A stretch of 43,705 nucleotides of DNA from Vectrevirus T147P1. The position numbers and the translations under genes are program-made. The notes beneath the pieces were generated by a model. It made no database searches. It saw only the letters and a program-made list of their open reading frames with translations, and was not told the origin of the DNA. Positions 330-21,336 of the stretch are shown here, piece by piece; positions within the stretch are counted from its first letter, which is position 1, and every line of letters starts with the position of its first letter. Where the stretch lies: the sequence record OZ035788.1. The stretch is one strand, 5' to 3'.

Positions 330-2227
330 TGGCTAAGGCAAGAGAATCACAAGCGGAGGCTCTTGCCAGATGGGAGATGCTACAGGAGTTACAGCAGACC
401 TTTCCTTACACAGCGGAAGGTTTGCTTCTCTTTGCAGATACAGTTATTCATAACTTAATTGCAGGCAACCCTCATCTGATTCGTATGCAGGCGGATATCT
501 TGAAGTTCCTATTTTACGGACACAAGTACCGCCTCATCGAAGCACCTCGTGGTATCGCTAAGACAACACTATCAGCAATCTATACGGTATTCCGTATTAT
601 TCATGAACCGCATAAGCGTATCATGGTTGTGTCCCAAAACGCCAAGCGAGCAGAGGAAATCGCAGGTTGGGTAGTTAAAATCTTCCGTGGCTTAGACTTT
701 CTTGAGTTTATGCTGCCGGATATCTACGCTGGGGACCGTGCATCCGTTAAGGCGTTTGAGATTCATTACACCCTACGTGGCAGTGATAAGTCTCCTTCTG
801 TATCATGTTACTCAATCGAAGCAGGTATGCAGGGTGCTCGTGCTGATATTATTCTAGCGGATGACGTAGAGTCGATGCAGAATGCTCGTACGGCAGCGGG
901 CCGTGCCTTGCTTGAGGAACTGACTAAGGAGTTTGAATCTATCAACCAGTTTGGGGATATCATTTACCTTGGTACACCTCAGAACGTAAACTCTATCTAC
1001 AACAACCTACCTGCTCGTGGTTACTCTGTTCGTATCTGGACTGCGCGTTACCCTTCAGTAGAGCAAGAGCAATGTTATGGCGACTTCCTTGCACCTATGA
1101 TTGTTCAAGATATGAAGGACAACCCAGCACTTCGCTCAGGGTACGGGTTGGATGGTAATAGTGGTGCACCTTGTGCCCCTGAAATGTATGATGATGAAGT
1201 CCTGATTGAGAAGGAAATCTCTCAGGGTGCTGCTAAGTTCCAGCTTCAGTTCATGCTTAACACTCGCATGATGGATGCTGACAGATACCCATTACGCCTG
1301 AACAATCTAATCTTCACCTCGTTTGGTACAGAGGAAGTCCCTGTGATGCCTACGTGGAGTAATGATTCCATAAACATCATTGGTGATGCACCTAAGTATG
1401 GTAACAAGCCTACGGATTTCATGTACAGACCTGTAGCTCGCCCATACGAATGGGGTGCTGTCTCCCGCAAGATTATGTATATTGACCCTGCTGGTGGTGG
1501 TAAGAACGGAGATGAGACGGGTGCAGCCATCGTATTCCTGCACGGCACATTCATTTATGTGTATCAGTGCTTTGGTGTACCTGGCGGATACCGAGAGTCG
1601 TCCCTGAATCGCATTGTGCAGGCCGCAAAGCAGGCGGGTGTTAAAGAGGTATTCATTGAGAAGAACTTTGGTCATGGCGCGTTTGAGGCGGTAATTAAGC
1701 CGTATTTTGAACGAGAGTGGCCTGTAACTCTGGAAGAGGATTACGCCACCGGACAGAAAGAGTTGCGTATCATTGAGACGCTGGAGCCGCTCATGGCAGC
1801 CCATAGGCTTATCTTCAATGCAGAGATGGTGAAGTCAGACTTTGAGTCGGTACAGCACTATCCGCTTGAACTACGCATGTCCTACAGTCTTTTCAATCAA
1901 ATGTCGAACATAACGATTGAGAAGAACAGCCTCCGGCACGATGACCGCCTAGACGCCCTGTATGGCGCTATACGGCAATTAACTTCTCAGATAGACTATG
2001 ACGAGGTTACACGGATTAATCGCCTCAGAGCGCAGGAGATGCGCGATTACATCCATGCTATGAATACACCTCATCTACGCAGGGCAATGCTATATGGAGA
2101 TTACGGTACTGAGCGAAGAGTGACCAACACTTCCGTAGCGATGCAGCAGCGAGTTTACGGGCAGAACTACCGAAATAAATCGGCAAGCAGAAATACACTT
2201 TCTGCAAGGATTTCAAGGACTTATTAA
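329..2227 (+). CDS. terminase large subunit (T7 gp19-like)
   Basis: 633-aa ORF; Walker A-like EAPRGIAKTT and Walker B-like IILADDVE; AGGAGG RBS; size and position as in T7-like phages. Confidence 0.9.
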   Translation: MAKARESQAEALARWEMLQELQQTFPYTAEGLLLFADTVIHNLIAGNPHLIRMQADILKFLFYGHKYRLIEAPRGIAKTTLSAIYTVFRIIHEPHKRIMVVSQNAKRAEEIAGWVVKIFRGLDFLEFMLPDIYAGDRASVKAFEIHYTLRGSDKSPSVSCYSIEAGMQGARADIILADDVESMQNARTAAGRALLEELTKEFESINQFGDIIYLGTPQNVNSIYNNLPARGYSVRIWTARYPSVEQEQCYGDFLAPMIVQDMKDNPALRSGYGLDGNSGAPCAPEMYDDEVLIEKEISQGAAKFQLQFMLNTRMMDADRYPLRLNNLIFTSFGTEEVPVMPTWSNDSINIIGDAPKYGNKPTDFMYRPVARPYEWGAVSRKIMYIDPAGGGKNGDETGAAIVFLHGTFIYVYQCFGVPGGYRESSLNRIVQAAKQAGVKEVFIEKNFGHGAFEAVIKPYFEREWPVTLEEDYATGQKELRIIETLEPLMAAHRLIFNAEMVKSDFESVQHYPLELRMSYSLFNQMSNITIEKNSLRHDDRLDALYGAIRQLTSQIDYDEVTRINRLRAQEMRDYIHAMNTPHLRRAMLYGDYGTERRVTNTSVAMQQRVYGQNYRNKSASRNTLSARISRTY

Positions 2228-2248
2228 TTACTGGACACTATAGAAGGA
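2226..2248 (+). promoter_or_regulatory. phage RNAP promoter
   Basis: AATTACTGGACACTATAGAAGGA; overlaps the terminase stop codon. Confidence 0.7.
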
Positions 2249-2270
2249 AGGCCCAGATAATAAGAGAAAA

Positions 2271-2308
2271 TAATAGGTAATATAGGTTAACCTAGGTTAT
2301 ATAGGTAT
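2271..2308 (+). repeat. promoter-proximal AT-rich TAGGT element (copy A)
   Basis: TAATAGGTAATATAGGTTAACCTAGGTTATATAGGT; contains the 13-mer AGGTTATATAGGT also present at 14177-14189. Confidence 0.5.
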
Positions 2309-2382
2309 GCCTTAGTATGGGTGTACTCCTGTACACCCTATTCCTTACTACCTTACTATATTTACATAATAGGAGAGAGACA

Positions 2383-3913: not shown

Positions 3914-3992
3914 GTAAGATAGCGCCGTTCTTTTGAGCGGCCTATTACTAGCCAATCTTCATGGTGAGGGTTGGAAAGTAATAGGAGGTTTA

Positions 3993-5917: not shown

Positions 5918-5970
5918 GCAACTTTTCTTAAAGGTTATCATGGTGGTAGCCTTTCAGAAAAGGAGGTTAC

Positions 5971-7683
5971 ATGCTTCAAAGATTAAGTGCTTACTTGGTG
6001 AAGTACAAGAGTAAACTAACAGGTACTATTGAGCGCCTGCTATCTGATAAACTATCGGATACAATAGATGTTGCGGATTTTGGAGTTAATCCATCTTCTA
6101 ATGACAACAGGCAAGCCCTTCAAGCTGCATTCAATGCGGTCAGATTTCTAGGCGGTGGTACTGTATCAGTCACTAAAGCTGGCGAATATAAACTCAGTGG
6201 TACTGTTGAGATATTTGCTAATACACACTTCAAGGTTGCTAAAGGTGTAACATTTGTACGTGACTACGAAACAGGAGATACGCTATTCAGATTATCACAA
6301 GGGCAAGCTAGTAATGTAACAGTCAGTGGAGGTGTCTATGAAGGCAATGGTCACATTAAAGGAGATACACCTTTTGTAGTATTTGCATCTACTAGTAATA
6401 ATGATTTGAAGTTTGAAGGCATAACAGTTAACAATGTAGTGGACTACCACGCCATAGATTTAGCAGATTGGAACAACGTAGTTATTCGTGATTGTAAGTT
6501 CCTAGGGTTTAAGAATACAGGCAGTCGTAACTTCTCAGAGGCTATACAGTTAGACCCAGGACTTATTACAGTAGGTCGCTATGTGCAGTCTAGTGGTTTA
6601 CTGGTAGAGAATTGCTATGCTGGCCCAAACCTTGATTCTGGATTTGGCGGGTATGGTGCTCTAGTAGGAAATCATGCATCAGCTTATGGTGTTCAAGATA
6701 ACAACATTAGAATCCTAAATTGCACTACAGATGGTGCGCTCTTTGCAGGTGTACGTGTATTTAACTGGAAAAACTGGACAGTACGTGGTTGCACCTTTAG
6801 AAACTCTAATGCAAGAGGTATTCATGTTACACCTGTCTCCTCTCAAACTAAACCGCAAGGAACTCGACAAGGTAGTGTTGTAGATTGTACTTTTGATGGC
6901 GTAAGAACACCAGTGCTAATTGCGGCACCATCTTGGCCTTTTACCGATATTAGTGACATTTGGCATGACCATGTTGAAGTTTCTAATAATACTATGATCC
7001 TCACAGAGGATGTATCCTATGGTATAGATGCAAGGTGGTGTAAGAATTTAATTGTAAAAGGTAATACAGGCTCTGGTGGCTTAGGGTTAATCGGTTTACG
7101 CTTTGGGACAAAATACCACATCGAAGGTAATACTTGGGAAAACGGAAGAGGTAGTGGGATTTGGTTAGGTGAGTCTGATGCTGCTACATTCATTGGTACT
7201 GGCTTATCGGGCGAAGGTATACTTAGTCGTAATATCCTCTCTAAATTAGGGCAATATGGTATTCATGTAAACTGCAAGGTTGGCGGTCTAGTGATTAAGG
7301 CTAATAATATGAAGGAAGTATCTACAGCTGAAGCAGGTAGGCACTTCATTAGCATAGACACAGGAGCTAACAACATCCTAGTAGAAGGTAATATTGGAGT
7401 AGATGGAGAAAGCCCTAACAAGCCAAGCCTTGGTATTCGTGTTACTTCTTCTTGCTCCAATATTAAACTAATTGGCAATGATTGCTATGGTACGCAAGCA
7501 CCTCAGAATAACCAAGGAGTCGGTTCTAGTACGGTGATTGTTTATGGACTAAATGGTAATCCTACAACTTTAGGCGTAGGTGCACCTGTAGGCTCTTTAG
7601 CAACTGATATCAATGGGTCTGGTGGTAGTACATTGTACGTTAAAGAATCTGGTACATCTGCTCAAGGTTGGGTTGCAAAGTAG
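5971..7683 (+). CDS. tailspike protein 2, pectate-lyase-like beta-helix
   Basis: 570 aa; AGGAGG RBS; repeated beta-helix rungs (NNIRILNCTTDG, VRGCTFRNSNARGIHV). Confidence 0.75.
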   Translation: MLQRLSAYLVKYKSKLTGTIERLLSDKLSDTIDVADFGVNPSSNDNRQALQAAFNAVRFLGGGTVSVTKAGEYKLSGTVEIFANTHFKVAKGVTFVRDYETGDTLFRLSQGQASNVTVSGGVYEGNGHIKGDTPFVVFASTSNNDLKFEGITVNNVVDYHAIDLADWNNVVIRDCKFLGFKNTGSRNFSEAIQLDPGLITVGRYVQSSGLLVENCYAGPNLDSGFGGYGALVGNHASAYGVQDNNIRILNCTTDGALFAGVRVFNWKNWTVRGCTFRNSNARGIHVTPVSSQTKPQGTRQGSVVDCTFDGVRTPVLIAAPSWPFTDISDIWHDHVEVSNNTMILTEDVSYGIDARWCKNLIVKGNTGSGGLGLIGLRFGTKYHIEGNTWENGRGSGIWLGESDAATFIGTGLSGEGILSRNILSKLGQYGIHVNCKVGGLVIKANNMKEVSTAEAGRHFISIDTGANNILVEGNIGVDGESPNKPSLGIRVTSSCSNIKLIGNDCYGTQAPQNNQGVGSSTVIVYGLNGNPTTLGVGAPVGSLATDINGSGGSTLYVKESGTSAQGWVAK

Positions 7684-7994: not shown

Positions 7995-8056
7995 TCCTGT
8001 ACAAGGATTAACCAAAGTCAAAATTTTGATATAGGCGTGTGTCAGCTCTCTCGCCC

Positions 8057-8330
8057 TCGCCCTCGCCGGATTTCCCCCATATGGGGCCGCGCTGCGGTTG
8101 GCTTGGGAATTGGGCTGGGCTGGTCCGTCTTCGACGGGTGGCCTAGGGCTTGCCGAGGTCTGCTCTTAGTGACTGCACAAGGAGAACGCCTAGGAAGCGC
8201 TAGGGCACGCCTTAGTATTGGACAAGGTGATTGCCTTAGTGAAGCCTCTTAGTGCATTCCTTAGGCCATTCAGGGTGTTTATGAGGGATTGACAGGGTAT
8301 GATGGCGTGGGCTATCTGTTCGTTTCGTTC
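8057..8330. other. candidate terminal-repeat / physical genome end region
   Basis: GC-rich block beginning TCTCTCGCCCTCGCC, with palindrome CCCCATATGGGG (8085-8096) and a T7 CJ-like ATCTGTT (8313-8319); strongly reminiscent of the T7 terminal repeat; exact ends not determinable. Confidence 0.4.
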
Positions 8331-8638
8331 ACTCCGCTTGCGCTACGTTCACTCGCTCACGTGTACCTTAGGTTATTACTTGATGGATAGCTTAGGTTAA
8401 CCTTAGTGGACTACCTTAGTTAAAGCCTTAGTGCTTATCTTAGTAATAGCTTAGTAGTGTACCTTAGTAAGTCTTAGTGTCTTCTCTTAGTGATTGCACA
8501 TGCAAGCATGTAAGATGCCATTAGGTCGCGGTCGGTAGACCGCTAAAGAAAGAGAATAGTAATAAGATGCAGTAAGAGGAACACCGGAAACCTAGCCAAC
8601 CTAACCTATCCTAGCTCTGTATCTATTGCTTTTCCTTA

Positions 8639-8654
8639 GTCTCACATGTTAGAC
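8639..8654. repeat. degenerate copy of the 16-bp palindrome (GTCTCACATGTTAGAC)
   Basis: One mismatch to GTCTCACATGTGAGAC. Confidence 0.4.
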
Positions 8655-8688
8655 AACCTATCTTATTCTTAGTGATGATAACTTAGTG

Positions 8689-8717
8689 TTGACAAGATAA
8701 TCTTAGTGTAATACTAT
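8689..8717 (+). promoter_or_regulatory. candidate host sigma70 early promoter
   Basis: TTGACA, 17-nt spacer, TACTAT, upstream of the first early genes. Confidence 0.35.
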
Positions 8718-8860
8718 GCATCACGTAGGCGGTGCTGAGGCACCTAGTAGCCAGCTAGTAAGGCATACGAAGAGACTAGTGCTTACATTGCTCTTTAACA
8801 ATTTGCTTAGTGTAACCTATGTATGCCGTGGTTAATTACTTATTGAATGAGGGATTAACT

Positions 8861-10201: not shown

Positions 10202-10327
10202 ATGAAACTATCGCCATCCGCTAAAGGCCTCATTGCAGAACTTAAAGACTCTTTGAGGAATCCAATCATTTGGGCACTTATCTACATACCTTATGGTATC
10301 TACCTATTTCACCTCATCACTGAGTAA
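10202..10327 (+). CDS. small membrane protein
   Basis: 41 aa with hydrophobic segment IIWALIYIPYGIYLFHLI; GAGG RBS. Confidence 0.35.
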   Translation: MKLSPSAKGLIAELKDSLRNPIIWALIYIPYGIYLFHLITE

Positions 10328-10388
10328 ATAGCCTATAGCCTACCTATGTGGGCTATGTGATATTTACTTACACTATAAGGTGATTAAT

Positions 10389-11375: not shown

Positions 11376-14003
11376 ATGCAAGACCTACACGCTATTCAAC
11401 TTCAACTTGAAGAAGAAATGTTTAACGGCGGTATCCGTCGCTTTGAAGCGGACCAACAACGCCAGATTGCATCCGGTAATGAATCAGACACGGCATGGAA
11501 TCGCCGCTTATTGTCCGAGTTAATCGCGCCAATGGCTGAAGGTATTCAGGCTTATAAGGAAGAGTACGAAGGCAAGCGCGGTCGTGCACCACGTGCATTG
11601 GCTTTCATTAACTGCGTAGAAAATGAAGTGGCAGCGTATATCACGATGAAGATCGTAATGGATATGCTTAACACTGATGTAACCTTGCAAGCTATCGCTA
11701 TGAATGTAGCTGACCGCATCGAAGACCAAGTGCGCTTCAGTAAACTAGAAGGCCATGCAGCTAAATATTTTGAGAAGGTCAAGAAGTCACTTAAGGCAAG
11801 TAAGACTAAATCATATCGCCATGCGCACAATGTAGCGGTCGTGGCTGAGAAGTCAGTAGCTGACCGTGACGCTGATTTCTCTCGCTGGGAAGCGTGGCCT
11901 AAAGATACCTTGCTACAAATTGGTATGACCTTGCTAGAAATACTGGAAAATAGTGTATTCTTCAACGGGCAGCCTGTTTTCATCCGCACCTTGCGTACTA
12001 ATGGCGGCAAACACGGTGTTTACTACTTACAGACTAGTGAACACGTTGGCGAGTGGATAACCGCCTTCAAAGAGCACGTAGCGCAACTAAGCCCTGCATA
12101 TGCACCTTGCGTTATTCCTCCGCGTCCGTGGGTTTCACCTTTCAACGGTGGGTTTCATACTGAGAAAGTAGCAAGCCGTATCCGCCTTGTTAAAGGCAAC
12201 CGTGAGCACGTCCGTAAGTTAACTAAAAAGCAAATGCCAGCGGTCTATAAGGCTGTTAACGCCTTACAAGCTACTAAGTGGCAGGTTAACAAGGAAGTAT
12301 TGCAGGTAGTAGAAGATGTTATTCGTCTAGACCTCGGTTATGGTGTACCTTCCTTTAAGCCGCTCATTGACCGCGAGAACAAACCAGCTAACCCTGTTCC
12401 TCTTGAGTTCCAACACCTGAGAGGCCGTGAACTGAAAGAGATGCTTACGCCAGAACAGTGGCAAGCTTTTATAAACTGGAAAGGAGAATGTACCAAGCTG
12501 TATACCGCTGAAACTAAGCGCGGAAGCAAGTCGGCGGCGACCGTTCGCATGGTTGGACAGGCCCGTAAATACAGCCAGTTTGACGCAATTTATTTTGTGT
12601 ATGCACTGGACAGCCGTTCGCGCGTTTATGCGCAATCTAGCACGCTCTCGCCGCAATCAAACGACTTAGGCAAGGCATTGCTCCGTTTTACCGAAGGGCA
12701 GCGTCTTGATAGCGCTGAGGCGCTTAAGTGGTTTTTGGTGAACGGGGCGAATAATTGGGGTTGGGATAAGAAAACTTTTGACGTGCGCACCGCTAACGTG
12801 CTGGATGGCGAATTTCAAGACATGTGCCGCGATATTGCAGCCGACCCGCTGACCTTCACTCAATGGGTAAATGCTGATTCCCCTTACGGCTTCCTTGCAT
12901 GGTGCTTTGAATATGCGCGTTATCTGGATGCACTGGATGAAGGCACGCAAGACCAATTCATGACGCACCTACCCGTCCATCAAGACGGTAGTTGCTCTGG
13001 TATCCAGCACTATAGCGCGATGTTACGCGATGAAGTAGGTGCGAAAGCAGTAAACCTTAAGCCTTCTGACTCCCCTCAAGATATTTATGGCGCGGTTGCG
13101 CAGGTTGTTATCCAGAAGAATTACGCCTACATGAATGCAGACGATGCAGAGACTTTCACATCTGGAAGCGTCACACTTACAGGTGCAGAACTGCGTAGCA
13201 TGGCTAGTGCGTGGGATATGATAGGAATCACTCGCGGATTGACCAAAAAGCCCGTAATGACACTACCTTATGGCAGCACACGTCTAACCTGCCGTGAATC
13301 AGTGATTGATTATATCGTTGATTTGGAAGAAAAAGAGGCCCAACGAGCTATTGCGGAAGGACGTACCGCCAATCCTGTACATCCTTTTGATAATGACCGT
13401 AAGGACAGCCTGACACCTAGCGCAGCTTATAACTATATGACAGCTTTAATCTGGCCTTCTATTTCGGAAGTGGTTAAAGCTCCTATAGTGGCAATGAAAA
13501 TGATTCGTCAGCTTGCCCGTTTCGCAGCTAAAAGGAATGAAGGCCTAGAGTATACCTTGCCTACTGGCTTCATCTTGCAACAAAAGATAATGGCTACTGA
13601 TATGCTCCGCGTATCCACTTGCCTGATGGGGGAAATCAAGATGAGTCTACAGATTGAAACGGACGTAGTGGATGAAACGGCTATGATGGGCGCTGCTGCT
13701 CCTAACTTTGTGCATGGTCATGATGCCAGTCACCTTATCTTAACAGTCTGCGACCTTGTTGATAAAGGGATTACATCTATCGCAGTCATTCATGATTCTT
13801 TCGGTACTCACGCAGGCCGTACAGCCGATCTACGTGATAGTCTAAGGGCAGAAATGGTGAAGATGTATCAAGGCCGTAATGCCCTGCAAAGCCTGTTAGA
13901 TGAGCATGAAGAACGCTGGTTAGTAGACACCGGAATCCAAGTGCCAGAGCAAGGAGAGTTTGACCTTAACGAAATCTTAGTATCTGACTATTGCTTCGCA
14001 TAA
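11376..14003 (+). CDS. single-subunit DNA-dependent RNA polymerase (SP6/T7 family)
   Basis: 875 aa; N-terminus [32 protein letters not shown]... and internal [25 protein letters not shown] / [11 protein letters not shown] / IHDSFGTHA match SP6 RNAP as recalled; AGGAG RBS. Confidence 0.97.
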
Positions 14004-14011
14004 TATTAATA

Positions 14012-14040
14012 GGCCATTCCTTCGGGAGTGGCCTTTTCTT
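14012..14040 (+). terminator. intrinsic terminator after the RNAP gene (TE-like)
   Basis: GGCCATTCC-TTCG-GGAGTGGCC hairpin (9 bp, UUCG loop) followed by TTTTCTTTT. Confidence 0.6.
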
Positions 14041-14076
14041 TTACCTACTACCGGTAACATTTCATTAACATAAAGT

Positions 14077-14092
14077 GTCTCACATGTGAGAC
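14077..14092. repeat. 16-bp palindrome GTCTCACATGTGAGAC (copy 1)
   Basis: Perfect palindrome immediately upstream of the promoter at 14095. Confidence 0.8.
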
Positions 14093-14094
14093 TT

Positions 14095-14117
14095 ATTTAC
14101 CGGACACTATAGGATAG
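14095..14117 (+). promoter_or_regulatory. phage RNAP promoter
   Basis: ATTTACCGGACACTATAGGATAG. Confidence 0.7.
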
Positions 14118-14158
14118 CCGTCGGAGACGGGAAAGAAGGGAAGATAAAGGATATAAAA

Positions 14159-14215
14159 GGAAGTAATAGGTATTAAAGGTTATATAGGTTTACCTAGGAA
14201 TACCTATTACCTTCC
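14159..14215. repeat. AT-rich element with 16-bp inverted repeat arms (copy B); candidate replication origin core
   Basis: GGAAGTAATAGGTATT ... AATACCTATTACCTTCC arms flank AGGTTATATAGGT; lies between two phage promoters just downstream of the RNAP gene, the layout of the T7 primary origin. Confidence 0.45.
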
Positions 14216-14258
14216 TCCTTCCTCTTATTACTACTTAGAGGAAGGGCAGACCTAAGTT

Positions 14259-14274
14259 GTCTCACATGTGAGAC
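14259..14274. repeat. 16-bp palindrome GTCTCACATGTGAGAC (copy 2)
   Basis: Perfect palindrome immediately upstream of the promoter at 14280. Confidence 0.8.
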
Positions 14275-14279
14275 TTCGT

Positions 14280-14302
14280 ATTTACCGGACAGTATAGATA
14301 AG
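14280..14302 (+). promoter_or_regulatory. phage RNAP promoter (variant, G at -5)
   Basis: ATTTACCGGACAGTATAGATAAG. Confidence 0.5.
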
Positions 14303-14459
14303 ACTAACTTACTTTGGAGATTTAACCATGCGTAACTTTGAGAAGATGACCCGTAAAGCTAACCGTTTTGACATGGAAGAAGGGCAGACTAAAGGCAAGA
14401 AGCTTAATAAACCTGTCCGCGACCGTGCATCTAAACGCGCTGCGTGGGAGTTCTAAGTT

Positions 14460-14681
14460 ATGGCTAAATACAGGATTAAGACGTGTTTAAACAATCAGGG
14501 GCATGAGTGCTATATAGTACAGCGTAAGGTTCTACTGGGCTTGCTGTGGGTTACTTGTATGATGCCTATTGGCTACACTGACACTGAAGCCATCTTTGGC
14601 ACGGAAGATGATGCCTACAGATTCATCGCTAAACGTAGAAAAGTAGAACGTTATAAACACAGAATTATTAAGGTAAACTAA
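14460..14681 (+). CDS. hypothetical protein
   Basis: 73-aa ORF with GGGAG RBS; stop overlaps the primase start (TAATG). Confidence 0.55.
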   Translation: MAKYRIKTCLNNQGHECYIVQRKVLLGLLWVTCMMPIGYTDTEAIFGTEDDAYRFIAKRRKVERYKHRIIKVN

Positions 14682-16669
14682 TGGCTATAATCAATAACAT
14701 TCAATGCCCTGCTTGTGCTAAGAACGGGCATGATAAATCCTCTAATCATCTCATGATATTTGATGATGGTGCTGGCTACTGTAATCGTGGACACTTTCAT
14801 GATAATGGTAGACCTTACTACCACAAGCCGGAAGGTGGCATCGAGATAACCGAGTTACCTATTACTGGCAATATCAAATATACACCTTCTCAATTCAAAG
14901 AAATGGAGAAGGAAGGGAAGATAAGCGACCCTAAATTACGTGCCATCGCACTAGGTGGTATGCGTATGAAAGACCGTTGGGAGGTCATGAATGAGCAAGA
15001 AAGGGCAGACCAAGAAGCAGAGTGGAAACTTGATGTTGAATGGTTCCTCACGCTTAAGCGTAAGAACCTTGTTTCCCGACACATTCGCGGCGACATTTGC
15101 GCATTGTATGATGTACGTGTCGGACACGATGAAGAGGGTAGAGTCTCGCGGCATTACTATCCACGCTTCGAGAAAGGTGAGCTAGTAGGAGCTAAGTGTC
15201 GCACATTACCTAAAGACTTTAAGTTTGGTCATTTAGGTAAACTCTTTGGTATGCAAGACCTTTTCGGGATGAATACTTTGTCTCACGTGTTAGACAAGGG
15301 AAGACGAAAGGACTGCTTGCTCATTGTCGGCGGCGAACTGGATGCACTAGCAGCGCAGCAGATGCTCCTTGATTCTGCCAAGGGTACTAAGTGGGAGGGT
15401 CAGCCATACCATGTATGGTCTGTCAACAAAGGCGAGTCTTGCCTTGAAGAGATAGTGCAGAACCGTGAGCATATCGCCCAATTCAAGAAGATTATATGGG
15501 GTTTTGATGGAGATGAGGTAGGGCAGAAGCAGAATCAGCAAGCGGCTCGCCTGTTTCCTGGCAAATCCTATATCCTTGAATACCCCTCTGGTTGCAAAGA
15601 TGCTAACAAGGCATTGATGGCTGGCAAGGCTAAAGAATTTGTAGATGCATGGTTTAATGCCAAGTCATCTGATGAAGTCTTTGGTAGCCAGATTAAATCT
15701 ATTGCATCTCAAAGGGATAAGCTCAAGGCTGCACGTCCAGAGCAAGGACTATCATGGCCTTGGCCTAAGCTGAACAAGGTAACGCTAGGTATTCGTAAGA
15801 ATCAGCTTATCATTGTAGGTGCAGGGTCTGGTGTAGGTAAGACTGAGTTCCTTCGTGAAGTAGTTAAGCACCTCATTGAAGAACACGGTGAATCTGTAGG
15901 CATCATTTCTACAGAAGACCCGATGGTCAAGGTGTCCCGTGCTTTTATCGGCAAGTGGATTGATAAGCGTATTGAGTTACCGCCAACCAACGACCCGAAA
16001 GAAGATGGATACCGTGAGGTGTTCGACTACACCGAGGAAGAAGCTAACGCCGCCATTGATTATGTAGCTGATACAGGTAAGCTGTTTGTGGCTGACCTAG
16101 AGGGTGACTATTCGATGGAAAAGGTAGAGCAAACTTGCCTAGAGTTTGAGGCTATGGGCATTTCTAATATCATCATTGATAACTTAACGGGGATTAAATT
16201 AGATGAGCGTGCTTTTGGTGGGAAGGTTGGTGCACTTGATGAATGCGTCAAGCGGATTGGTACTATCAAAGACCGACACCCGGTTACTATATTCCTTGTA
16301 TCACACCTTACACGTCCTCCGGCAAACCGTACCCAACACGAAGAAGGTGGCGAAGTTATCCTTTCTGACTTCCGAGGCTCAGGCGCTATCGGATTCTGGG
16401 CATCTTACGCCTTGGGGATTGAGCGTAATACAAGAGCTGAAACGCTTGACGAAAGGACTACCACGTACATCTCATGTGTCAAAGACCGCGACCAAGGTAT
16501 CTGGACTGGAACCAAGGTCATGCTTAAGGGTGACATTCAAACCGGACGTTTAATGGAACCACAAGCCCGTACTAAGTCATTTGATACAGGTGAAGCAAGG
16601 CAACAAGAAGTGCCGGATTTACCGGACACTATAGAAGAGACAACCTTTGACGATGAACAGGAGTTTTAA
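14681..16669 (+). CDS. DNA primase/helicase (T7 gp4-like)
   Basis: 662 aa; N-terminal Cys4 zinc ribbon (CPACAKNGHDKSSNH...CNRGHFH), Walker A GAGSGVGKT of the DnaB-like helicase domain, acidic C-terminus ending in F. Confidence 0.95.
   Translation: MAIINNIQCPACAKNGHDKSSNHLMIFDDGAGYCNRGHFHDNGRPYYHKPEGGIEITELPITGNIKYTPSQFKEMEKEGKISDPKLRAIALGGMRMKDRWEVMNEQERADQEAEWKLDVEWFLTLKRKNLVSRHIRGDICALYDVRVGHDEEGRVSRHYYPRFEKGELVGAKCRTLPKDFKFGHLGKLFGMQDLFGMNTLSHVLDKGRRKDCLLIVGGELDALAAQQMLLDSAKGTKWEGQPYHVWSVNKGESCLEEIVQNREHIAQFKKIIWGFDGDEVGQKQNQQAARLFPGKSYILEYPSGCKDANKALMAGKAKEFVDAWFNAKSSDEVFGSQIKSIASQRDKLKAARPEQGLSWPWPKLNKVTLGIRKNQLIIVGAGSGVGKTEFLREVVKHLIEEHGESVGIISTEDPMVKVSRAFIGKWIDKRIELPPTNDPKEDGYREVFDYTEEEANAAIDYVADTGKLFVADLEGDYSMEKVEQTCLEFEAMGISNIIIDNLTGIKLDERAFGGKVGALDECVKRIGTIKDRHPVTIFLVSHLTRPPANRTQHEEGGEVILSDFRGSGAIGFWASYALGIERNTRAETLDERTTTYISCVKDRDQGIWTGTKVMLKGDIQTGRLMEPQARTKSFDTGEARQQEVPDLPDTIEETTFDDEQEF
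16617..16639 (+). promoter_or_regulatory. phage RNAP promoter inside the 3' end of the primase/helicase gene
   Basis: ATTTACCGGACACTATAGAAGAG. Confidence 0.7.
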
Positions 16670-18077: not shown

Positions 18078-18185
18078 ATGCCACGTGATTATGATTCTGA
18101 TTGGGACTATTATGACTCAATGAATCCAAAACCCGAACGTTCAGATGATTACTACGAAACAGAGGCAATGTATGAAGACTATTGA
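18078..18185 (+). CDS. small acidic Tyr/Asp-rich peptide
   Basis: 35 aa MPRDYDSDWDYYDSMNPKPERSDDYYETEAMYEDY; GGAGG RBS 7 nt upstream; overlaps the DNA polymerase start. Confidence 0.4.
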   Translation: MPRDYDSDWDYYDSMNPKPERSDDYYETEAMYEDY

Positions 18186-20718
18186 TTGGAAGAAGGAGGC
18201 AGAAGGTCGTATCCTCGTGATGGATGCGGAAGCTAAAGGACTCCTTGACGCTATCCGATATGGACACCGTGAAGATGTGCATATCATTTGCTGCATGGAT
18301 TTGCTTACTACCGAGGAGTTTCTCTTCTTTGACCCGTATGAGATGCGTGACCCTGAAGCAAGAGAACGCCTGAAGGAATGGGAAGGTCATCAAGATGGAA
18401 CCTTGGTTGACGGTGTTAACTTCCTGAAGCACTGTGAGGCTATTGTGTCGCAGAACTTCCTAGGGTATGACGGTCTTCTCTTTGAGAAAGCATTCCCTGA
18501 TATTTGGAAAGGCTTTAACTATACCGAGAAGCGCGGTAAGGGCAGACTCCGTGCTGACCTGTGTCCTATCCGTGTTGTAGATACGCTGGTGATGAGTCGT
18601 CTGCTAAACCCAGATAGACGCCTTCCTCCGCAAGCATATGCCAAAGGCATGGGTAACGTCGCCCCTCACTCAATTGAGGCGCACGGCATCCGTATAGGCC
18701 GCTATAAACCAGAGAATGAGGACTGGTCTAAACTAACTGACCACATGGTTCACCGTGTACGTGAAGACGTGGCAATTGGTCGTGACCTTTTCCTATGGCT
18801 TTACAACGGAGAGTGGACGGAGCACAAACGCCGTGGCGTGAATAAACGTACTGGCCTAGGTATTGAGACAGCCTTCCACATGGAGTCCATTGTGGCGCTG
18901 GAGATGAGCCGTCAGGCCGAGCGCGGGTTCCGTCTGGACATCGACAAGGCTTTGGCCCGATGCGAAGAATTGGACGCTAAGATTGACGAGACAGTCGCAG
19001 CGTTCCGCCCTCACATGCCTATGCGTATCAAGTCTAAACCTTTTAAACCGGAAGAAAAGAATGAAGTATGCCAACGCGCAAATGAGTATGGAGCTAGCAA
19101 CAATATACCTACTGTCCTTGACCCCTCACACTTTCTTCATGCCGAGAGACGAGGAGATCGCAAGACAGTATGGAGTGTCACTACTAAGTCTGGTGATTGG
19201 TCGGCTAGTGTCAAGAAAGACTTTCCTCACCTTAGAGGAAACCGTAATGACACGCCAAGCATCAAGTGGATTGGCGCTTACTCGCCTGTTACTTTCGAAG
19301 AGATTCCCTTGGGTAACAGGGATACAGTTAAGCAAGTGCTCTATGATTATGGATGGAAAGGTGTTGAATTTAACGATACCGAGCAAGCGCATCTCGATGA
19401 GCACGGAGTGTTACCCAAACCTTGGAGTGGTAAGATAAATGAAAAGTCCCTTACTTTATGGCAAGAAAGAGCCGCACGTGAAGGTAAAACAGTCCCTGAT
19501 TGGTGCTTGGGTATCGCTGCATGGTACATACTCGTATCCCGTCGTGGTCAGATACTCAACCGTGGTGACGTTGAAGCCTTCAACGAGAAGGGGACGTGGC
19601 CCTCGCAGGCTGGTGTACGAAAGTGTCGCGGCCTTGTACCTGTAGCATTCAACAAGGAGCTAGGAATCAATGCGCAGCAATACTACGAGAGGTACGGATG
19701 TTGGCCTACGTCTGATAAAGATGACGGAGAGTGGCGTGTTCCAGCTGTTGCTATTAGCATTGGCACTTCTACGTTCCGTATGCGTCATCGTAACGTGGTT
19801 AATGTTCCTGCCCGTGGCTTGTATCCTTTACGTGATTTATTCATAGCAGGGAAAGGCAAGCTAATCCTTGGTTGTGACGGTGCAGGTCTTGAACTGCGTG
19901 TCCTGTCTCACTTCATGAATGACCCTGAGTACCAAGAGATTGTACTGCACGGTGATATTCATACGCATAACCAGATGAAGGCTGGTCTTCCTAAGCGTGA
20001 TATGGCGAAGACGTTTATATACGCCTTCCTCTATGGCTCTGGTATAGCCAACCTTGCAGCAGTATGTGGTGTTACTGAGGAAGAAATGAAGGAAGTTGTG
20101 GCAAGATTCGAGATTGAACTGCCGTCTCTTGCACGTCTTCGTGAGAATGTTATCGCACAAGGTAACAAGTTTGGCTACCTGCAAGCACCTGATGGGCATT
20201 GGGGTCGCATCCGCATGTCTGGTGGTGAACTTAAAGAGCACACGATGCTTAACGTATTACTCCAGATGACTGGCTCTTTGTGTATGAAATATGCATTAGT
20301 CAAGGCATTTGCAGTAATGCGCAAGGAAGGTGTAGCCTTGGATGCTATGGGAAATCCTTGTGGTGTGGCTAACGTGCATGATGAAATCCAGATGGAAGTC
20401 CCTGAAGAGGAGGTCTTGTATCTTAACTACGACCTACCTTTCACCTTAGATGGGTTCGAAACAGAGAAGGCTGCCGTGAAAGCAGTATTCGATGCAGAGG
20501 AGAAACGTGTTCATGTGGATTCTGAAGGACGTATGTGGTCTGCTGCAAACCTCGTTAGTGTTGATGCTGATGCTGGTGTATTGCATTGCCAGCGCCGTTA
20601 TCACCGTGCAGGTCATATCATTGCCGACGCCATGACTTGGGCAGGGCAGTATCTGAAGATGCGTTGCCCGATGGCAGGCGAATATAAGATTGGCGCAAGC
20701 TGGAAGGAAACACACTGA
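18172..20718 (+). CDS. DNA polymerase, family A (T7 gp5-like)
   Basis: About 848 aa; N-terminal exonuclease-like ILVMDAEAKGL; polymerase motifs including HDEIQMEVPEE; start chosen at the ATG after GAGG (ORF opens at 18145). Confidence 0.93.
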   Translation: MKTIDWKKEAEGRILVMDAEAKGLLDAIRYGHREDVHIICCMDLLTTEEFLFFDPYEMRDPEARERLKEWEGHQDGTLVDGVNFLKHCEAIVSQNFLGYDGLLFEKAFPDIWKGFNYTEKRGKGRLRADLCPIRVVDTLVMSRLLNPDRRLPPQAYAKGMGNVAPHSIEAHGIRIGRYKPENEDWSKLTDHMVHRVREDVAIGRDLFLWLYNGEWTEHKRRGVNKRTGLGIETAFHMESIVALEMSRQAERGFRLDIDKALARCEELDAKIDETVAAFRPHMPMRIKSKPFKPEEKNEVCQRANEYGASNNIPTVLDPSHFLHAERRGDRKTVWSVTTKSGDWSASVKKDFPHLRGNRNDTPSIKWIGAYSPVTFEEIPLGNRDTVKQVLYDYGWKGVEFNDTEQAHLDEHGVLPKPWSGKINEKSLTLWQERAAREGKTVPDWCLGIAAWYILVSRRGQILNRGDVEAFNEKGTWPSQAGVRKCRGLVPVAFNKELGINAQQYYERYGCWPTSDKDDGEWRVPAVAISIGTSTFRMRHRNVVNVPARGLYPLRDLFIAGKGKLILGCDGAGLELRVLSHFMNDPEYQEIVLHGDIHTHNQMKAGLPKRDMAKTFIYAFLYGSGIANLAAVCGVTEEEMKEVVARFEIELPSLARLRENVIAQGNKFGYLQAPDGHWGRIRMSGGELKEHTMLNVLLQMTGSLCMKYALVKAFAVMRKEGVALDAMGNPCGVANVHDEIQMEVPEEEVLYLNYDLPFTLDGFETEKAAVKAVFDAEEKRVHVDSEGRMWSAANLVSVDADAGVLHCQRRYHRAGHIIADAMTWAGQYLKMRCPMAGEYKIGASWKETH

Positions 20719-20989: not shown

Positions 20990-21250
20990 ATGATTAAATC
21001 ACAGAAGTATTTCTCAACTAAAGATCGTAAGGTAGGTTTTGAAATCAAAGTTTGGGAAGACGGACACATTACTATTATTTACGAAGGTAAAGGTTCTAAT
21101 GGTATGATGCTACGTAGATGCCGTACATTCACAAAGAAAGAATGTATGCATATGTCTGAATGCATGTTTCTTTACATCATTGCTGATGATATTAAAGGTA
21201 TGAAGCTAATTGTATCTCTACCTTTAATACCTAAATCTTTGTTAGGTTGA
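20990..21250 (+). CDS. hypothetical protein
   Basis: 86-aa ORF with GGAGAG RBS. Confidence 0.55.
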   Translation: MIKSQKYFSTKDRKVGFEIKVWEDGHITIIYEGKGSNGMMLRRCRTFTKKECMHMSECMFLYIIADDIKGMKLIVSLPLIPKSLLG

Positions 21251-21272
21251 TTTATTGGACACTATAGAAGGA
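21250..21272 (+). promoter_or_regulatory. phage RNAP promoter
   Basis: ATTTATTGGACACTATAGAAGGA. Confidence 0.7.
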
Positions 21273-21285
21273 AAGCCTAGACAAT

Positions 21286-21327
21286 CTAGGTTTATAAGGT
21301 AGTATAGGTAATTAAGTAAATATAGGA
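21286..21327 (+). repeat. promoter-proximal AT-rich TAGGT element (copy C)
   Basis: CTAGGTTTATAAGGTAGTATAGGTAATTAAGTAAATATAGGA; related to copies A and B. Confidence 0.4.
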
Positions 21328-21336
21328 GATATAAAC

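What the first reader, a model, noticed from the sequence alone, without database searches (positions are those of the whole stretch)
14077..14302. Candidate primary replication origin: two phage promoters flanking an AT-rich inverted repeat downstream of the RNAP gene
Between the RNAP terminator and the primase gene lie promoter, 16-bp palindrome, AT-rich block with near-perfect 16-bp inverted arms (GGAAGTAATAGGTATT / AATACCTATTACCTTCC), palindrome, promoter. In T7 the primary origin is the pair of promoters just downstream of gene 1 plus an adjacent AT-rich segment, so this is the positional equivalent.
Basis: inference. Interest (0 to 1): 0.55.

Follow-up and report, generated by a model that had tools for sequence, protein, structure and literature searches.

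The report
T7-like tandem-promoter region after RNAP gene
This stretch of a K1E/SP6-type phage genome matches the T7 control region that holds T7's primary replication origin (two phage promoters around a structured, easily melted segment), so it is a reasonable but unproven origin candidate, and the inverted repeat most likely acts as an RNA hairpin.

Summary
The window is a Vectrevirus (K1E/K1-5-like) genome. The true order is: terminator, 16-bp palindrome, promoter P1, inverted-repeat block, palindrome, promoter P2, then a homolog of T7 gene 1.1.

The locus is therefore syntenic with T7 gene 1, phi1.1A, R1.1, phi1.1B, gene 1.1. The repeat sits where T7 has its R1.1 RNase III hairpin, not where T7 has its AT-rich segment.

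The layout is conserved in 27 distinct sequences from four lineages. Both promoters change together with lineage specificity, and the block diverges about five times less than RNAP third codon positions.

The palindromes are not specific to this locus. They belong to a family of 8 syntenic hairpins that pair on the + strand.

New here: the 5' arm is an array of AGG motifs about 10 nt apart. Such arrays occur only downstream of three phage promoters: after the RNAP gene, after the DNA polymerase gene, and after the terminase gene (the T7 phiOR position). These are also the genome's least stable DNA.

Origin function is plausible (about 0.45) but inferred. GC skew is ambiguous, and SP6 literature reportedly points to the DNA polymerase gene.

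The parts
11376..14003 (+). Single-subunit phage RNA polymerase gene (T7 gene 1 equivalent).
   Evidence: Pfam RNA_pol E = 1e-89 and RPOL_N. 99.5% nucleotide identity to Vectrevirus records.
14011..14044 (+). Intrinsic (host-RNAP type) terminator that ends the early RNAP transcription unit.
   Evidence: 10-bp stem with 6 GC pairs, TTCG loop and T tract. Conserved, with stem changes, in SP6 and Klebsiella relatives.
14045..14076 (+). Conserved spacer of unknown role (ACCTACTACCGGTAACATTTCATTAACATAAAGT).
   Evidence: Nearly invariant across three lineages (two named genera and unclassified Klebsiella phages). Unique in the genome. No sigma-70 promoter match.
14077..14092 (+). Copy 1 of the 16-nt hairpin/palindrome family (GTCTCACATGTGAGAC), 2 nt upstream of P1.
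   Evidence: Syntenic with SP6 6093, which carries GTCCAACGTGTTGGAC, a symmetric compensatory change.
14095..14117 (+). Phage-RNAP promoter P1. Transcription start (+1) is the G at 14112.
   Evidence: Exact match to the promoter core. PWM score 30.2 bits. The specificity region changes together with P2 in six lineages. Mean pairwise divergence 0.008 within Vectrevirus.
14118..14130 (+). 5' stem-loop of the P1 transcript (CCGUC-GGA-GACGG).
   Evidence: 100% paired in 14 distinct sequences. The third pair shows all four Watson-Crick types: GC 9, AU 3, CG 1, UA 1. Most other phage promoters here are also followed by a 5' hairpin.
14137..14198 (+). Array of seven AGG motifs spaced 9-11 nt apart, purine-rich. 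It forms the 5' half of the repeat block.
   Evidence: AGG at 14137, 14148, 14158, 14168, 14177, 14186 and 14196. It is the only run of 6 or more among all 64 trinucleotides. No run longer than 4 in 200 local shuffles. TRF finds period 10. 14123-14182 is the most purine-rich 60-mer in the genome, at 82%.
14159..14215 (+). Main inverted repeat, forming a hairpin of 17 bp plus a 4-bp apical stem.
   Evidence: z = -3.2. A long irregular hairpin of 25-46 predicted pairs is present in all 11 lineage representatives folded, although sequence and pairing register differ. Arm divergence 0.024-0.034.
14217..14245 (+). Second hairpin (CCUUCCUCU ... AGAGGAAGG, 9 bp).
   Evidence: Present in Vectrevirus, reduced in SP6 and absent in the Klebsiella lineage.
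14259..14274 (+). Copy 2 of the 16-nt hairpin/palindrome family, 5 nt upstream of P2.
   Evidence: Invariant in 14 Vectrevirus sequences. Absent in lineages L026, L027 and Gansuvirus.
14280..14302 (+). Phage-RNAP promoter P2. Transcription start (+1) is the G at 14297. Off-consensus (G at -5).
   Evidence: PWM score 22.3 bits. In every lineage P2 differs from its P1 or from the consensus at one position between -6 and -1.
14328..14456 (+). Homolog of T7 gene 1.1 (42 aa).
   Evidence: 59% identity to T7 gp1.1. PF08200 Phage_1_1 at E = 7e-16.
14681..16669 (+). Primase/helicase gene. It contains an in-gene copy of the 16-nt hairpin at 15280.
   Evidence: Pfam DnaB_C and Toprim_2. Palindrome, syntenic with SP6 7071.
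2226..2310 (+). Sister module: phage promoter directly after the terminase large-subunit gene (the T7 phiOR position), followed by an AGG array and AT-rich DNA.
   Evidence: Terminase Pfam hit. Promoter. AGG run at 2275-2303. Local alignment to the P1 leader scores 42, against 16.6 +/- 2.8 for shuffles. Among the least stable DNA in the genome. Same module in SP6, UAB78, VR702 and BP12B.
21250..21336 (+). Third, weaker module: phage promoter downstream of the DNA polymerase gene, followed by AGG repeats and the least stable 100 bp in the genome.
   Evidence: Five-copy arrays at the syntenic site in UAB78, VR702 and BP12B.

Best explanation
**What it is.** The segment is the K1E/SP6-group version of the T7 intergenic control region between gene 1 and gene 1.1 (phi1.1A, R1.1, phi1.1B).

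**How it most likely works.**
1. Host-RNAP early transcription stops at the terminator at 14011-14044.
2. The newly made phage RNAP then starts the DNA-metabolism transcription unit from two tandem rightward promoters, P1 (+1 at 14112) and P2 (+1 at 14297). That unit carries the gene 1.1 homolog, a 73-aa ORF, the primase-helicase gene and further genes.
3. The P1 transcript begins with a covarying 5' stem-loop.
4. It continues as a purine-rich array of AGG motifs about 10 nt apart. This array pairs with a downstream pyrimidine tract to give an irregular hairpin of about 21-25 bp.
5. This 'AT-rich inverted repeat' most likely acts in the RNA. It sits where T7 has R1.1, so it is probably an RNase III-type processing or stabilising hairpin.
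6. The two 16-bp palindromes are copies of a genome-wide family of RNA stem-loops that pair on the + strand.

**Possible origin role.** A strong phage promoter here fires into the most easily melted, most purine-rich DNA of the genome. The locus therefore has the ingredients of a T7-type transcription-primed origin:
- the RNAP transcript or R-loop would be used as primer by the phage DNA polymerase;
- the helicase-primase would load on the displaced strand.
It is the best positional candidate for the primary origin.

**Shown versus inferred.**
- Shown: synteny, promoters, conserved hairpins, strong purifying selection, and low duplex stability.
- Inferred: RNase III cleavage and all origin activity.
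- My estimates: about 0.85 that this is the T7-type tandem-promoter and RNA-hairpin region; about 0.45 that it is used as a replication origin; about 0.35 that it is the primary one.
For: **Synteny with T7.** The gene 1.1 homolog lies immediately downstream. The T7 layout was read directly from NC_001604. T7 replication starts at phi1.1A/phi1.1B, with secondary origins at phiOR and phi6.5 (PMC8373140; PMC12796468). T7 R1.1 is a 60-nt RNase III substrate located between genes 1.0 and 1.1 (PMC6121014; folded).

**Promoters.**
- Pattern enrichment and PWM scores support both sites.
- P1 and P2 change together in the specificity region across K1E-type, SP6-type, Klebsiella-type, L025, L026, L027 and Gansuvirus lineages.

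**RNA-level features.**
- The 5' stem-loop shows all four Watson-Crick pair types at one position.
- The + strand folds better than the - strand in 22 of 26 sequences.
- A long hairpin is kept in every lineage despite different sequence and register, with z from -1.5 to -3.5.
- Other leader hairpins of about 20 bp exist elsewhere in this genome.

**Selection.** Intergenic divergence is 0.056, against 0.27 at RNAP third codon positions.

**Origin-type properties.**
- The centre is the 2nd least stable 100-mer in the genome.
- It contains the most purine-rich 60-mer in the genome.
- The same AGG-array module follows the post-terminase promoter, which is the T7 phiOR position.
- The detrended cumulative GC-skew minimum lies 0.4-0.7 kb to the right of the locus in the window, SP6 and VR702.
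Against: - No experiment or marker-frequency data exist for this phage group in the searchable literature.
- In T7 the AT-rich initiation zone lies downstream of both promoters. Here only 30 nt separate P2 from gene 1.1.
- The GC-skew trough is flat from about 6 to 12.5 kb. Its minimum falls near the DNA polymerase gene in UAB78 and BP12B.
- PMC4837284 reports that Dobbins et al. 2004 suggested an SP6 origin at gene 14, the DNA polymerase gene. This is second hand; the original paper was not readable.
- Two other promoter + AT-rich modules fit the same criteria.
- There is no sequence similarity to the T7 phi1.1A-phi1.1B block and no Rfam family match.
- The strong purine bias is not seen in SP6.
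- Within Vectrevirus, some stem changes are uncompensated A-C mismatches on the + strand (L013, L017, L018). Strand evidence for the long hairpin is therefore modest.
Confidence: 0.55

Rival explanations
1. This is purely a transcription and RNA-processing region. The tandem promoters and the hairpin only set the level, the 5' ends and the stability of the DNA-metabolism mRNAs. Replication starts elsewhere, for example at the promoter + AT-rich module downstream of the DNA polymerase gene (window 21250-21336) or at the post-terminase module (2226-2310).
For: - Every structured element here has features typical of RNA on the + strand.
- 5' hairpins follow most phage promoters in this genome.
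- Leader hairpins of about 20 bp occur at other genes.
- The least stable 100 bp of the genome is at 21224, not at this locus.
- GC-skew minima fall at 11.5-12.3 kb in UAB78 and BP12B.
- There is a second-hand report of an SP6 origin suggested at gene 14.
Against: - In T7 the homologous region is both a promoter/RNase III region and the primary origin, so the two roles are not exclusive.
- Transcription-only logic leaves a second, weaker promoter 185 nt downstream of P1 less obviously motivated. Yet the tandem arrangement is conserved from T7 to all Molineuxvirinae examined.
- GC-skew minima in three of five genomes lie next to this locus.
Confidence: 0.3
2. This is a DNA-level origin of an iteron or unwinding-element type. 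The AGG repeats are spaced close to one helical turn apart and would lie on one face of the helix. They would bind or bend around a phage or host protein, and the inverted repeat would extrude as a cruciform or melt as the unwinding element, independently of RNA structure.
For: - There are seven AGG motifs at 9-11 bp spacing, on the + strand only.
- In five genomes such arrays occur essentially only at three syntenic promoter-proximal loci, apart from two 4-copy runs in VR702 and BP12B.
- These loci coincide with the least stable DNA.
- Both DNA strands can form the hairpin, with z about -3.5.
- The array motif does not change with promoter specificity, so it is not a promoter decoy.
Against: - No candidate initiator protein is known or was detected. 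T7-type replication needs none.
- The arrays always lie just downstream of a promoter and on the transcribed sense strand, as expected for an RNA or R-loop feature.
- The sister module at 2243-2385 has the array but no long hairpin, so the cruciform is not part of the shared design.
- The complementary CCT motifs are not phased.
Confidence: 0.08
3. P1 makes a discrete structured non-coding RNA of about 165-170 nt, running from 14112 to the second palindrome and its U-rich tail. This RNA would have its own trans function, for example as a sponge or decoy exposing SD-like AGG motifs. It would not be a leader or a primer.
For: - The RNA has sRNA-like architecture: a 5' stem-loop, a structured body, and a 3' hairpin followed by UUCGUAUUU.
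- The scan flags both palindromes as weak terminator-like sites.
- The block has 1-2-nt indels and no usable ORF, so it is non-coding.
- Conservation is very strong.
Against: - A 6-bp stem with a poor U tract is unlikely to stop a T7-type RNAP.
- Palindrome 2 is absent in L026, L027 and Gansuvirus.
- In PST_H2 about 340 bp are inserted between the hairpin and palindrome 2.
- GGA, the CsrA-type motif, is a minority of the repeats.
- There is no Rfam match.
Confidence: 0.07

Closest known systems
Bacteriophage T7 primary origin of replication (phi1.1A and phi1.1B plus adjacent AT-rich DNA, between genes 1 and 1.1)
   Same: - Same genomic position: directly after the RNAP gene and before a gene 1.1 homolog.
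- Two tandem rightward phage promoters.
- Easily melted DNA next to them.
- A replisome of the same type is encoded downstream: a primase-helicase and a family A DNA polymerase.
   Different: - The AT-rich, low-stability DNA lies between the promoters rather than downstream of both.
- There is no sequence similarity.
- It carries an array of AGG motifs about 10 nt apart and is flanked by 16-nt hairpins that T7 lacks.
- Origin activity is untested.
T7 R1.1 RNase III processing site
   Same: - An irregular hairpin in the sense transcript, placed between the two tandem promoters after gene 1.
- Comparable total helix length, about two helical turns.
   Different: - Unrelated sequence.
- Longer, more AT-rich and purine/pyrimidine-polarised.
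- It has a single-base bulge rather than a defined 4/5-nt internal loop.
- Cleavage has not been tested.
T7 secondary origin phiOR (promoter after the terminase gene)
   Same: This genome has a promoter immediately after the terminase large-subunit gene, followed by AT-rich DNA.
   Different: Here the post-terminase leader shares a recognisable sequence module (the AGG array) with the post-RNAP leader. T7's two origins share no similarity.
R-loop/transcript-primed origins (ColE1 RNA II, mitochondrial heavy-strand origin). Resemblance from general knowledge, not tested.
   Same: A promoter fires into a purine/G-cluster-rich non-template strand, which would favour a persistent RNA-DNA hybrid usable as a primer (one search gives the purine bias).
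   Different: No evidence of hybrid formation or of RNase H processing here. The purine bias is weaker in SP6.

Membership tests
T7-type transcription-primed primary origin | Located directly downstream of the phage RNAP gene and upstream of a gene 1.1 homolog. | tested here: met
   RNAP gene 11376-14003. Gene 1.1 homolog 14328-14456. T7 layout.
T7-type transcription-primed primary origin | Two tandem phage-RNAP promoters pointing rightward. | tested here: met
   The two sites change together across lineages. This is sequence-level evidence only; no transcript mapping is available.
T7-type transcription-primed primary origin | AT-rich, easily melted segment downstream of the promoters, where the RNA-to-DNA transition occurs. 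| tested here: inconclusive
   Low-stability DNA follows P1: the 2nd least stable 100-mer, 31% GC. But it lies between P1 and P2. Only a 30-nt leader follows P2, whereas T7 has 84 nt at 28% GC after phi1.1B.
T7-type transcription-primed primary origin | RNAP-dependent initiation of DNA synthesis, seen as the earliest replication bubble or a marker-frequency peak. | not testable with these tools
   GC skew is the only available proxy, and it is ambiguous.
T7-type transcription-primed primary origin | Primase recognition site on the displaced strand within the origin. | not testable with these tools
   The recognition sequence of the SP6-group primase is not known to me. GTC trinucleotides at the palindrome ends are not informative.
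RNase III processing site of the T7 R1.1 type | Sense-strand RNA hairpin of about two helical turns, in an intercistronic or leader position. | tested here: met
   17 + 4 bp, z = -3.2. A long hairpin is present in all 11 lineage representatives folded. The + strand is favoured in 22 of 26 sequences.
RNase III processing site of the T7 R1.1 type | Internal loop or bulge that directs single-strand cleavage. | tested here: inconclusive
   The window has a single-base bulge. SP6 and the Klebsiella lineage have several internal loops. No conserved loop geometry could be defined.
RNase III processing site of the T7 R1.1 type | Cleavage by host RNase III in vivo or in vitro. | not testable with these tools
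   No transcript-end data were found for this phage group.
RNase III processing site of the T7 R1.1 type | Sequence or covariance-model similarity to known sites. | tested here: not met
   Local alignment to the T7 phi1.1A-phi1.1B block scores 16, against 13.4 +/- 2.0 for shuffles. No Rfam hit at gathering score, and only chance-level hits at E up to 10.
Iteron-type replication origin | Directly repeated binding sites plus a cognate initiator protein. | tested here: inconclusive
   Repeats exist: 7 AGG motifs about 10 bp apart. No initiator candidate was sought or is known, and the repeats are degenerate (66-76% matches by TRF).

The most novel reading that the evidence does not exclude
AGG-repeat arrays with a spacing of about 10 nt, on the sense strand, start 2-32 nt after just three phage promoters per genome: after the RNAP gene, after the DNA polymerase gene and after the terminase gene. 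In this reading they are the actual origin determinants of Molineuxvirinae. They would be G-cluster arrays that nucleate R-loops behind the phage RNAP and so mark one primary and two secondary transcription-primed origins. This would be a sequence signature that T7 origins lack. The hairpin at the post-RNAP copy would hold the displaced strand or the RNA in place.
Probability: 0.2. Interest if true: 0.6.

Novelty: new member of a known kind. Interest (0 to 1): 0.42.

Why it matters
- Origins have been mapped experimentally in very few T7-supergroup phages. For the SP6/K1E group, which is widely used for SP6 RNAP technology and for K1-capsule phage therapy, the only published suggestion I could trace points to a different place.
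- Firm synteny with the T7 origin region, plus a short list of exactly three candidate modules that share a repeat signature, turns 'where does replication start' into a small, directly testable question.
- The same data define conserved RNA elements that would matter for engineering these phages. These are a covarying 5' stem-loop, a long leader hairpin and a family of 8 small hairpins. Deleting 'non-coding' DNA here is likely to be costly, because the block evolves about five times more slowly than RNAP third codon positions.

Tried and rejected
1. **Rfam.** Neither the whole window nor the locus gave a match. There was nothing at gathering score, and only chance-level miRNA/sRNA hits at E = 0.2-10.
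2. **Literature.** No hit for either palindrome sequence. No hit for SP6/K1-5 origin terms. The two 2004 genome papers could not be opened.
3. **GC skew as an origin locator.** Raw skew is positive everywhere. The detrended trough is flat from 6 to 12.5 kb, and its minimum moves between the post-RNAP and post-DNA-polymerase regions in different genomes. I rejected it as decisive evidence.
4. **Palindrome wobble asymmetry flipping across the origin.** This would have pointed to lagging-strand ssDNA hairpins. The SP6 copy at 493 looked inverted. But VR702's left-end copy at 858 has the + orientation, and the window's copy at 8639 is mismatched either way. Rejected.
5. **Cross-genus covariation of the long hairpin by MAFFT/RNAalifold.** The arms are not in register between lineages. 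Only the 5' stem-loop and the palindrome were recovered. I therefore report lineage-by-lineage folds rather than pair counts.
6. **AGG repeats as partial promoter decoys.** Rejected, because the motif stays the same while promoter specificity changes.
7. **CsrA-sponge idea.** Rejected, because GGA is a minority of the repeats and nearly absent in SP6.
8. **Protein-coding potential of the block.** Rejected. There are 1-2-nt length differences among close relatives, and the only ATG is inside the palindrome and is followed by TGA.
9. **Palindromes as operators for P1/P2.** Rejected. Spacing to the promoter varies from 2 to 15 nt. Most copies are not next to promoters, and one is inside the primase gene.
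10. **Pattern scan of IMG/VR for the 5' stem-loop.** It returned only lineages already in hand, plus chance matches.
Full report
**Identity of the window.** The 600 bp around the finding are 99.5% identical to Vectrevirus T147P9 and 94-97% identical to phages K1E and K1-5. The window is a circularly rotated genome of a K1E/K1-5-like phage (Autographiviridae, Molineuxvirinae). The physical left end lies near 8047, where CTCGCC repeats match the CTCGGC repeats at the termini of SP6. Pfam confirms the neighbouring genes:
- single-subunit RNAP at 11376-14003;
- primase-helicase at 14681-16669;
- family A DNA polymerase at 18145-20718;
- T7-type terminase large subunit at 326-2227.

| Element | Coordinates | Evidence |
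|---|---|---|
| Intrinsic terminator | 14011-14034 + T tract | |
| Palindrome GTCTCACATGTGAGAC, copy 1 | 14077-14092 | |
| Promoter P1 (exact consensus core) | 14095-14112 | |
| Inverted-repeat arms | 14159-14174 / 14199-14215 | |
| Palindrome, copy 2 | 14259-14274 | |
| Promoter P2 (C to G at -5) | 14280-14297 | |

- The promoter pattern gives 12 matches in the genome against 0.02 expected. Leave-one-out PWM scores are 30.2 bits for P1 and 22.3 bits for P2, against a genome-wide 99.9th percentile of -2.5.
- The repeat arms share a 12-nt exact core and are 16/17 nt long with one bulged base.
- The repeat is more than chance. As DNA, z = -3.45 and -3.83 on the two strands. As an RNA hairpin, z = -3.2.

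Four points need correcting:
1. The order on the left is palindrome then promoter. The block is flanked by a direct repeat of a [palindrome + promoter] unit, not by a mirror-image pair.
2. Two small genes separate P2 from the primase gene.
3. The whole block is only mildly AT-rich (39% GC against 44.9%). The central 60-100 bp are 27-31% GC and rank 2nd to 4th among the least stable DNA segments of the genome.
4. The palindrome occurs 8 times in the genome.

**Homology with the T7 origin region.** The first gene after P2 (14328-14456, 42 aa) is 59% identical to T7 gp1.1 and matches Pfam Phage_1_1 at E = 7e-16. The T7 record shows the following layout:
- gene 1 ends at 5822;
- phi1.1A at 5848;
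- phi1.1B at 5923;
- gene 1.1 starts at 6007.

The R1.1 hairpin lies between the two promoters, and an 84-nt segment of 28% GC lies between phi1.1B and gene 1.1. T7 replication starts at phi1.1A/phi1.1B, with secondary origins such as phiOR and phi6.5 (PMC8373140; PMC12796468). R1.1 is a 60-nt RNase III substrate from between genes 1.0 and 1.1 (PMC6121014).

The inverted repeat, however, occupies the R1.1 position, not the position of T7's AT-rich initiation zone. There is no detectable sequence similarity between the two blocks.

**Conservation.** I compared 27 distinct sequences: 26 collected, plus Gansuvirus Koku_003 (L133). They cover Vectrevirus, Zindervirus (SP6, UAB78, BP12B-like), unclassified Klebsiella Molineuxvirinae, three divergent IMG/VR lineages (L025-L027) and Gansuvirus. 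The shared architecture is:
- terminator;
- conserved spacer;
- palindrome;
- P1;
- 5' stem-loop;
- purine-rich repeat array;
- pyrimidine-rich complement;
- (palindrome);
- P2;
- gene 1.1 homolog.

Further points:
- The -12 to -8 specificity region of P1 and P2 changes in parallel from lineage to lineage (ACCGG, AAGGG/ACGTG, AGGAG/AGGTG, GTGTTG, AGACC, GGGCT, GTGGC). This is good evidence that both are real promoters for the cognate RNAP.
- P2 is off-consensus by one base in every lineage, at different positions.
- Within Vectrevirus the 325-nt intergenic block diverges by 0.056 per site, against 0.27 at third codon positions of the adjacent RNAP gene. P1 (0.008), palindrome 2 (0.000) and the repeat arms (0.024-0.034) are the most constrained.
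- In Salmonella phage PST_H2 about 340 bp, including an HNH-like remnant, are inserted between the hairpin and palindrome 2. The P1-P2 spacing is therefore not critical.

**RNA-level evidence.**
- *5' stem-loop.* P1 is followed at +7 to +19 by CCGUC-GGA-GACGG. Across 14 distinct versions it is 100% paired, and its third pair shows all four Watson-Crick types (GC 9, AU 3, CG 1, UA 1). No shuffle reached the observed covariation score. Most other phage promoters in the window are also followed by a 5' hairpin.
- *Long hairpin.* It is kept in every lineage, with 25-46 predicted pairs and z from -1.5 to -3.5. Sequence and pairing register differ, so MAFFT/RNAalifold could not put the arms in register. 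The + strand folds better than the - strand in 22 of 26 sequences. Some close relatives carry uncompensated A-C mismatches, so this strand evidence is modest.
- *Other hairpins.* The genome has other leader hairpins of about 20 bp with internal loops, at 3941-3985 (z = -6.7) and 10321-10370 (z = -5.3). These fit a T7-like use of RNase III-type sites.
- *Known families.* No Rfam family matches.

**The palindromes.**
- The 8 copies lie at syntenic positions in SP6, UAB78, VR702 and BP12B. One copy is inside the primase gene.
- The SP6-group version (GTCCAAC/GTTGGAC) differs from the K1E version (GTCTCAC/GTGAGAC) by symmetric, compensatory changes. Most Zindervirus copies are GTCTAAC...GTTGGAC. 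That form is a U-G wobble on the + strand and would be a C-A mismatch on the - strand.
- At three syntenic sites the stem extends to 13 bp. It is 98% paired, has five pairs with compensatory changes, and has conserved U-G/G-U wobbles.
- These are therefore stem-loops that pair on the + strand. They are most simply RNA, since all transcription runs rightward.
- Their function is unknown. Their tails are not consistently U-rich, and their spacing to promoters varies from 2 to 15 nt.
- They are not evidence for an origin at this locus.

**A new feature: AGG arrays.**
- The 5' half of the repeat block contains seven AGG motifs at 14137, 14148, 14158, 14168, 14177, 14186 and 14196, spaced 9-11 nt apart.
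- Among all 64 trinucleotides this is the only run of 6 or more in the window. Shuffles that preserve local composition never give more than 4. TRF reports period-10 arrays here and in SP6.
- In five complete genomes, runs of 4-10 copies occur on the + strand at three syntenic loci, each starting 2-32 nt after a phage promoter +1. The only runs outside these loci are two 4-copy runs: one on the - strand of VR702 (at 611) and one in the GC-rich left end of BP12B (47-78). The three loci are:
  - the post-RNAP P1 leader;
  - the promoter right after the terminase gene, which is the T7 phiOR position;
  - a promoter downstream of the DNA polymerase gene. Here the window and SP6 have only a weaker array that does not reach the 4-copy threshold.
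- The P1 leader and the post-terminase leader share a module of about 57 nt (alignment score 42, against 16.6 +/- 2.8 for shuffles). T7's primary origin and phiOR share nothing.
- These three loci are also the least stable DNA in the genome. 14123-14182 is the most purine-rich 60-mer in the genome, although this is not so in SP6.
- The post-terminase module has the array but no long hairpin. The array and the hairpin are therefore separable.

**Interpretation.** The shown facts establish a T7-type control region under strong selection: tandem promoters plus structured leader RNA. I consider it most likely that the inverted repeat works as an RNA hairpin of the R1.1 kind, for processing or stability.

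The locus also has what T7-type initiation needs: a phage promoter firing into easily opened DNA that is purine-rich on the sense strand. It is the only one of the three modules that is syntenic with T7's primary origin. It is therefore the best candidate for the primary origin.

That remains inference, for three reasons:
1. The detrended GC-skew minimum sits 0.4-0.7 kb to its right in three genomes, but near the DNA polymerase gene in two others.
2. One paper reports that the SP6 genome authors suggested an origin at gene 14.
3. No replication mapping for this group was found in the searchable literature.

I put the origin role at about 0.45, and primary-origin status at about 0.35.

**Novelty and score.** As an origin candidate this is a new, untested member of a known kind, the T7-type transcription-primed origin, in long-sequenced phages. 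The AGG-array modules and the 16-nt hairpin family are, as far as my searches show, undescribed. They give concrete experiments to run. Interest is 0.42.

Noticed in passing
window 8639, 14077, 14259, 15280, 16848, 18031, 22828, 39230 (16 nt each); SP6 (L030) 493, 6093, 6264, 7071, 8547, 9383, 14255, 17752, 30569: A family of 8-9 stem-loops that share one conserved sequence (GTCTCACRYGTGAGAC; GTCYAACRYGTTGGAC in the SP6 group). They lie at syntenic intergenic sites, and one copy is inside the primase gene. Wobble pairs fall only on the + strand. At three sites the stem extends to a covarying 13 bp. Their function is unknown.
   Followed up: partly
window 2226-2310 and 21250-21336; SP6 (L030) 37773-37851 and 12542-12620; VR702 (L033) 39800-39887: Arrays of AGG motifs about 10 nt apart begin 2-32 nt downstream of the post-terminase and post-DNA-polymerase phage promoters. 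They share a module with the P1 leader and coincide with the least stable DNA of the genome.
   Followed up: partly
window 14045-14076: A spacer of about 30 nt lies between the RNAP terminator and the first palindrome. It is almost invariant across three lineages (two named genera and unclassified Klebsiella phages), is unique in the genome and has no sigma-70 promoter match. Its role is unknown.
   Followed up: partly
window 8150-8830: A dense array of CTTAGT(G) repeats lies just inside the physical left end of the genome (about 8047, CTCGCC x3). It resembles the short-repeat arrays next to T7's terminal repeats. SP6 has the same feature at 219-318.
   Followed up: no
window 3941-3985 and 10321-10370: Two very stable leader hairpins of about 20 bp with small internal loops (z = -6.7 and -5.3) lie directly upstream of gene starts. 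They are good RNase III-site candidates. The 8-mer GTAATAGG, used in two such stems, occurs 9 times against 1.3 expected.
   Followed up: partly
L135 (Salmonella phage PST_H2) 330-900; L007/L032 (UAB78) 6493-6903; L034 (BP12B) 6337-6783: The RNAP-to-primase interval is a hotspot for HNH homing-endonuclease insertions. PST_H2 also carries a K1E-type palindrome upstream of P1 and an SP6-type palindrome upstream of P2 in the same genome.
   Followed up: partly
window 14280-14297 and the equivalent P2 sites in all loci: The second promoter is off-consensus by one base between -6 and -1 in every lineage. The position differs by lineage: -5 G in Vectrevirus and L026, -1 T in SP6 and Klebsiella types, -2 G in L027. 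This suggests selection for a deliberately weaker or unusual promoter.
   Followed up: no
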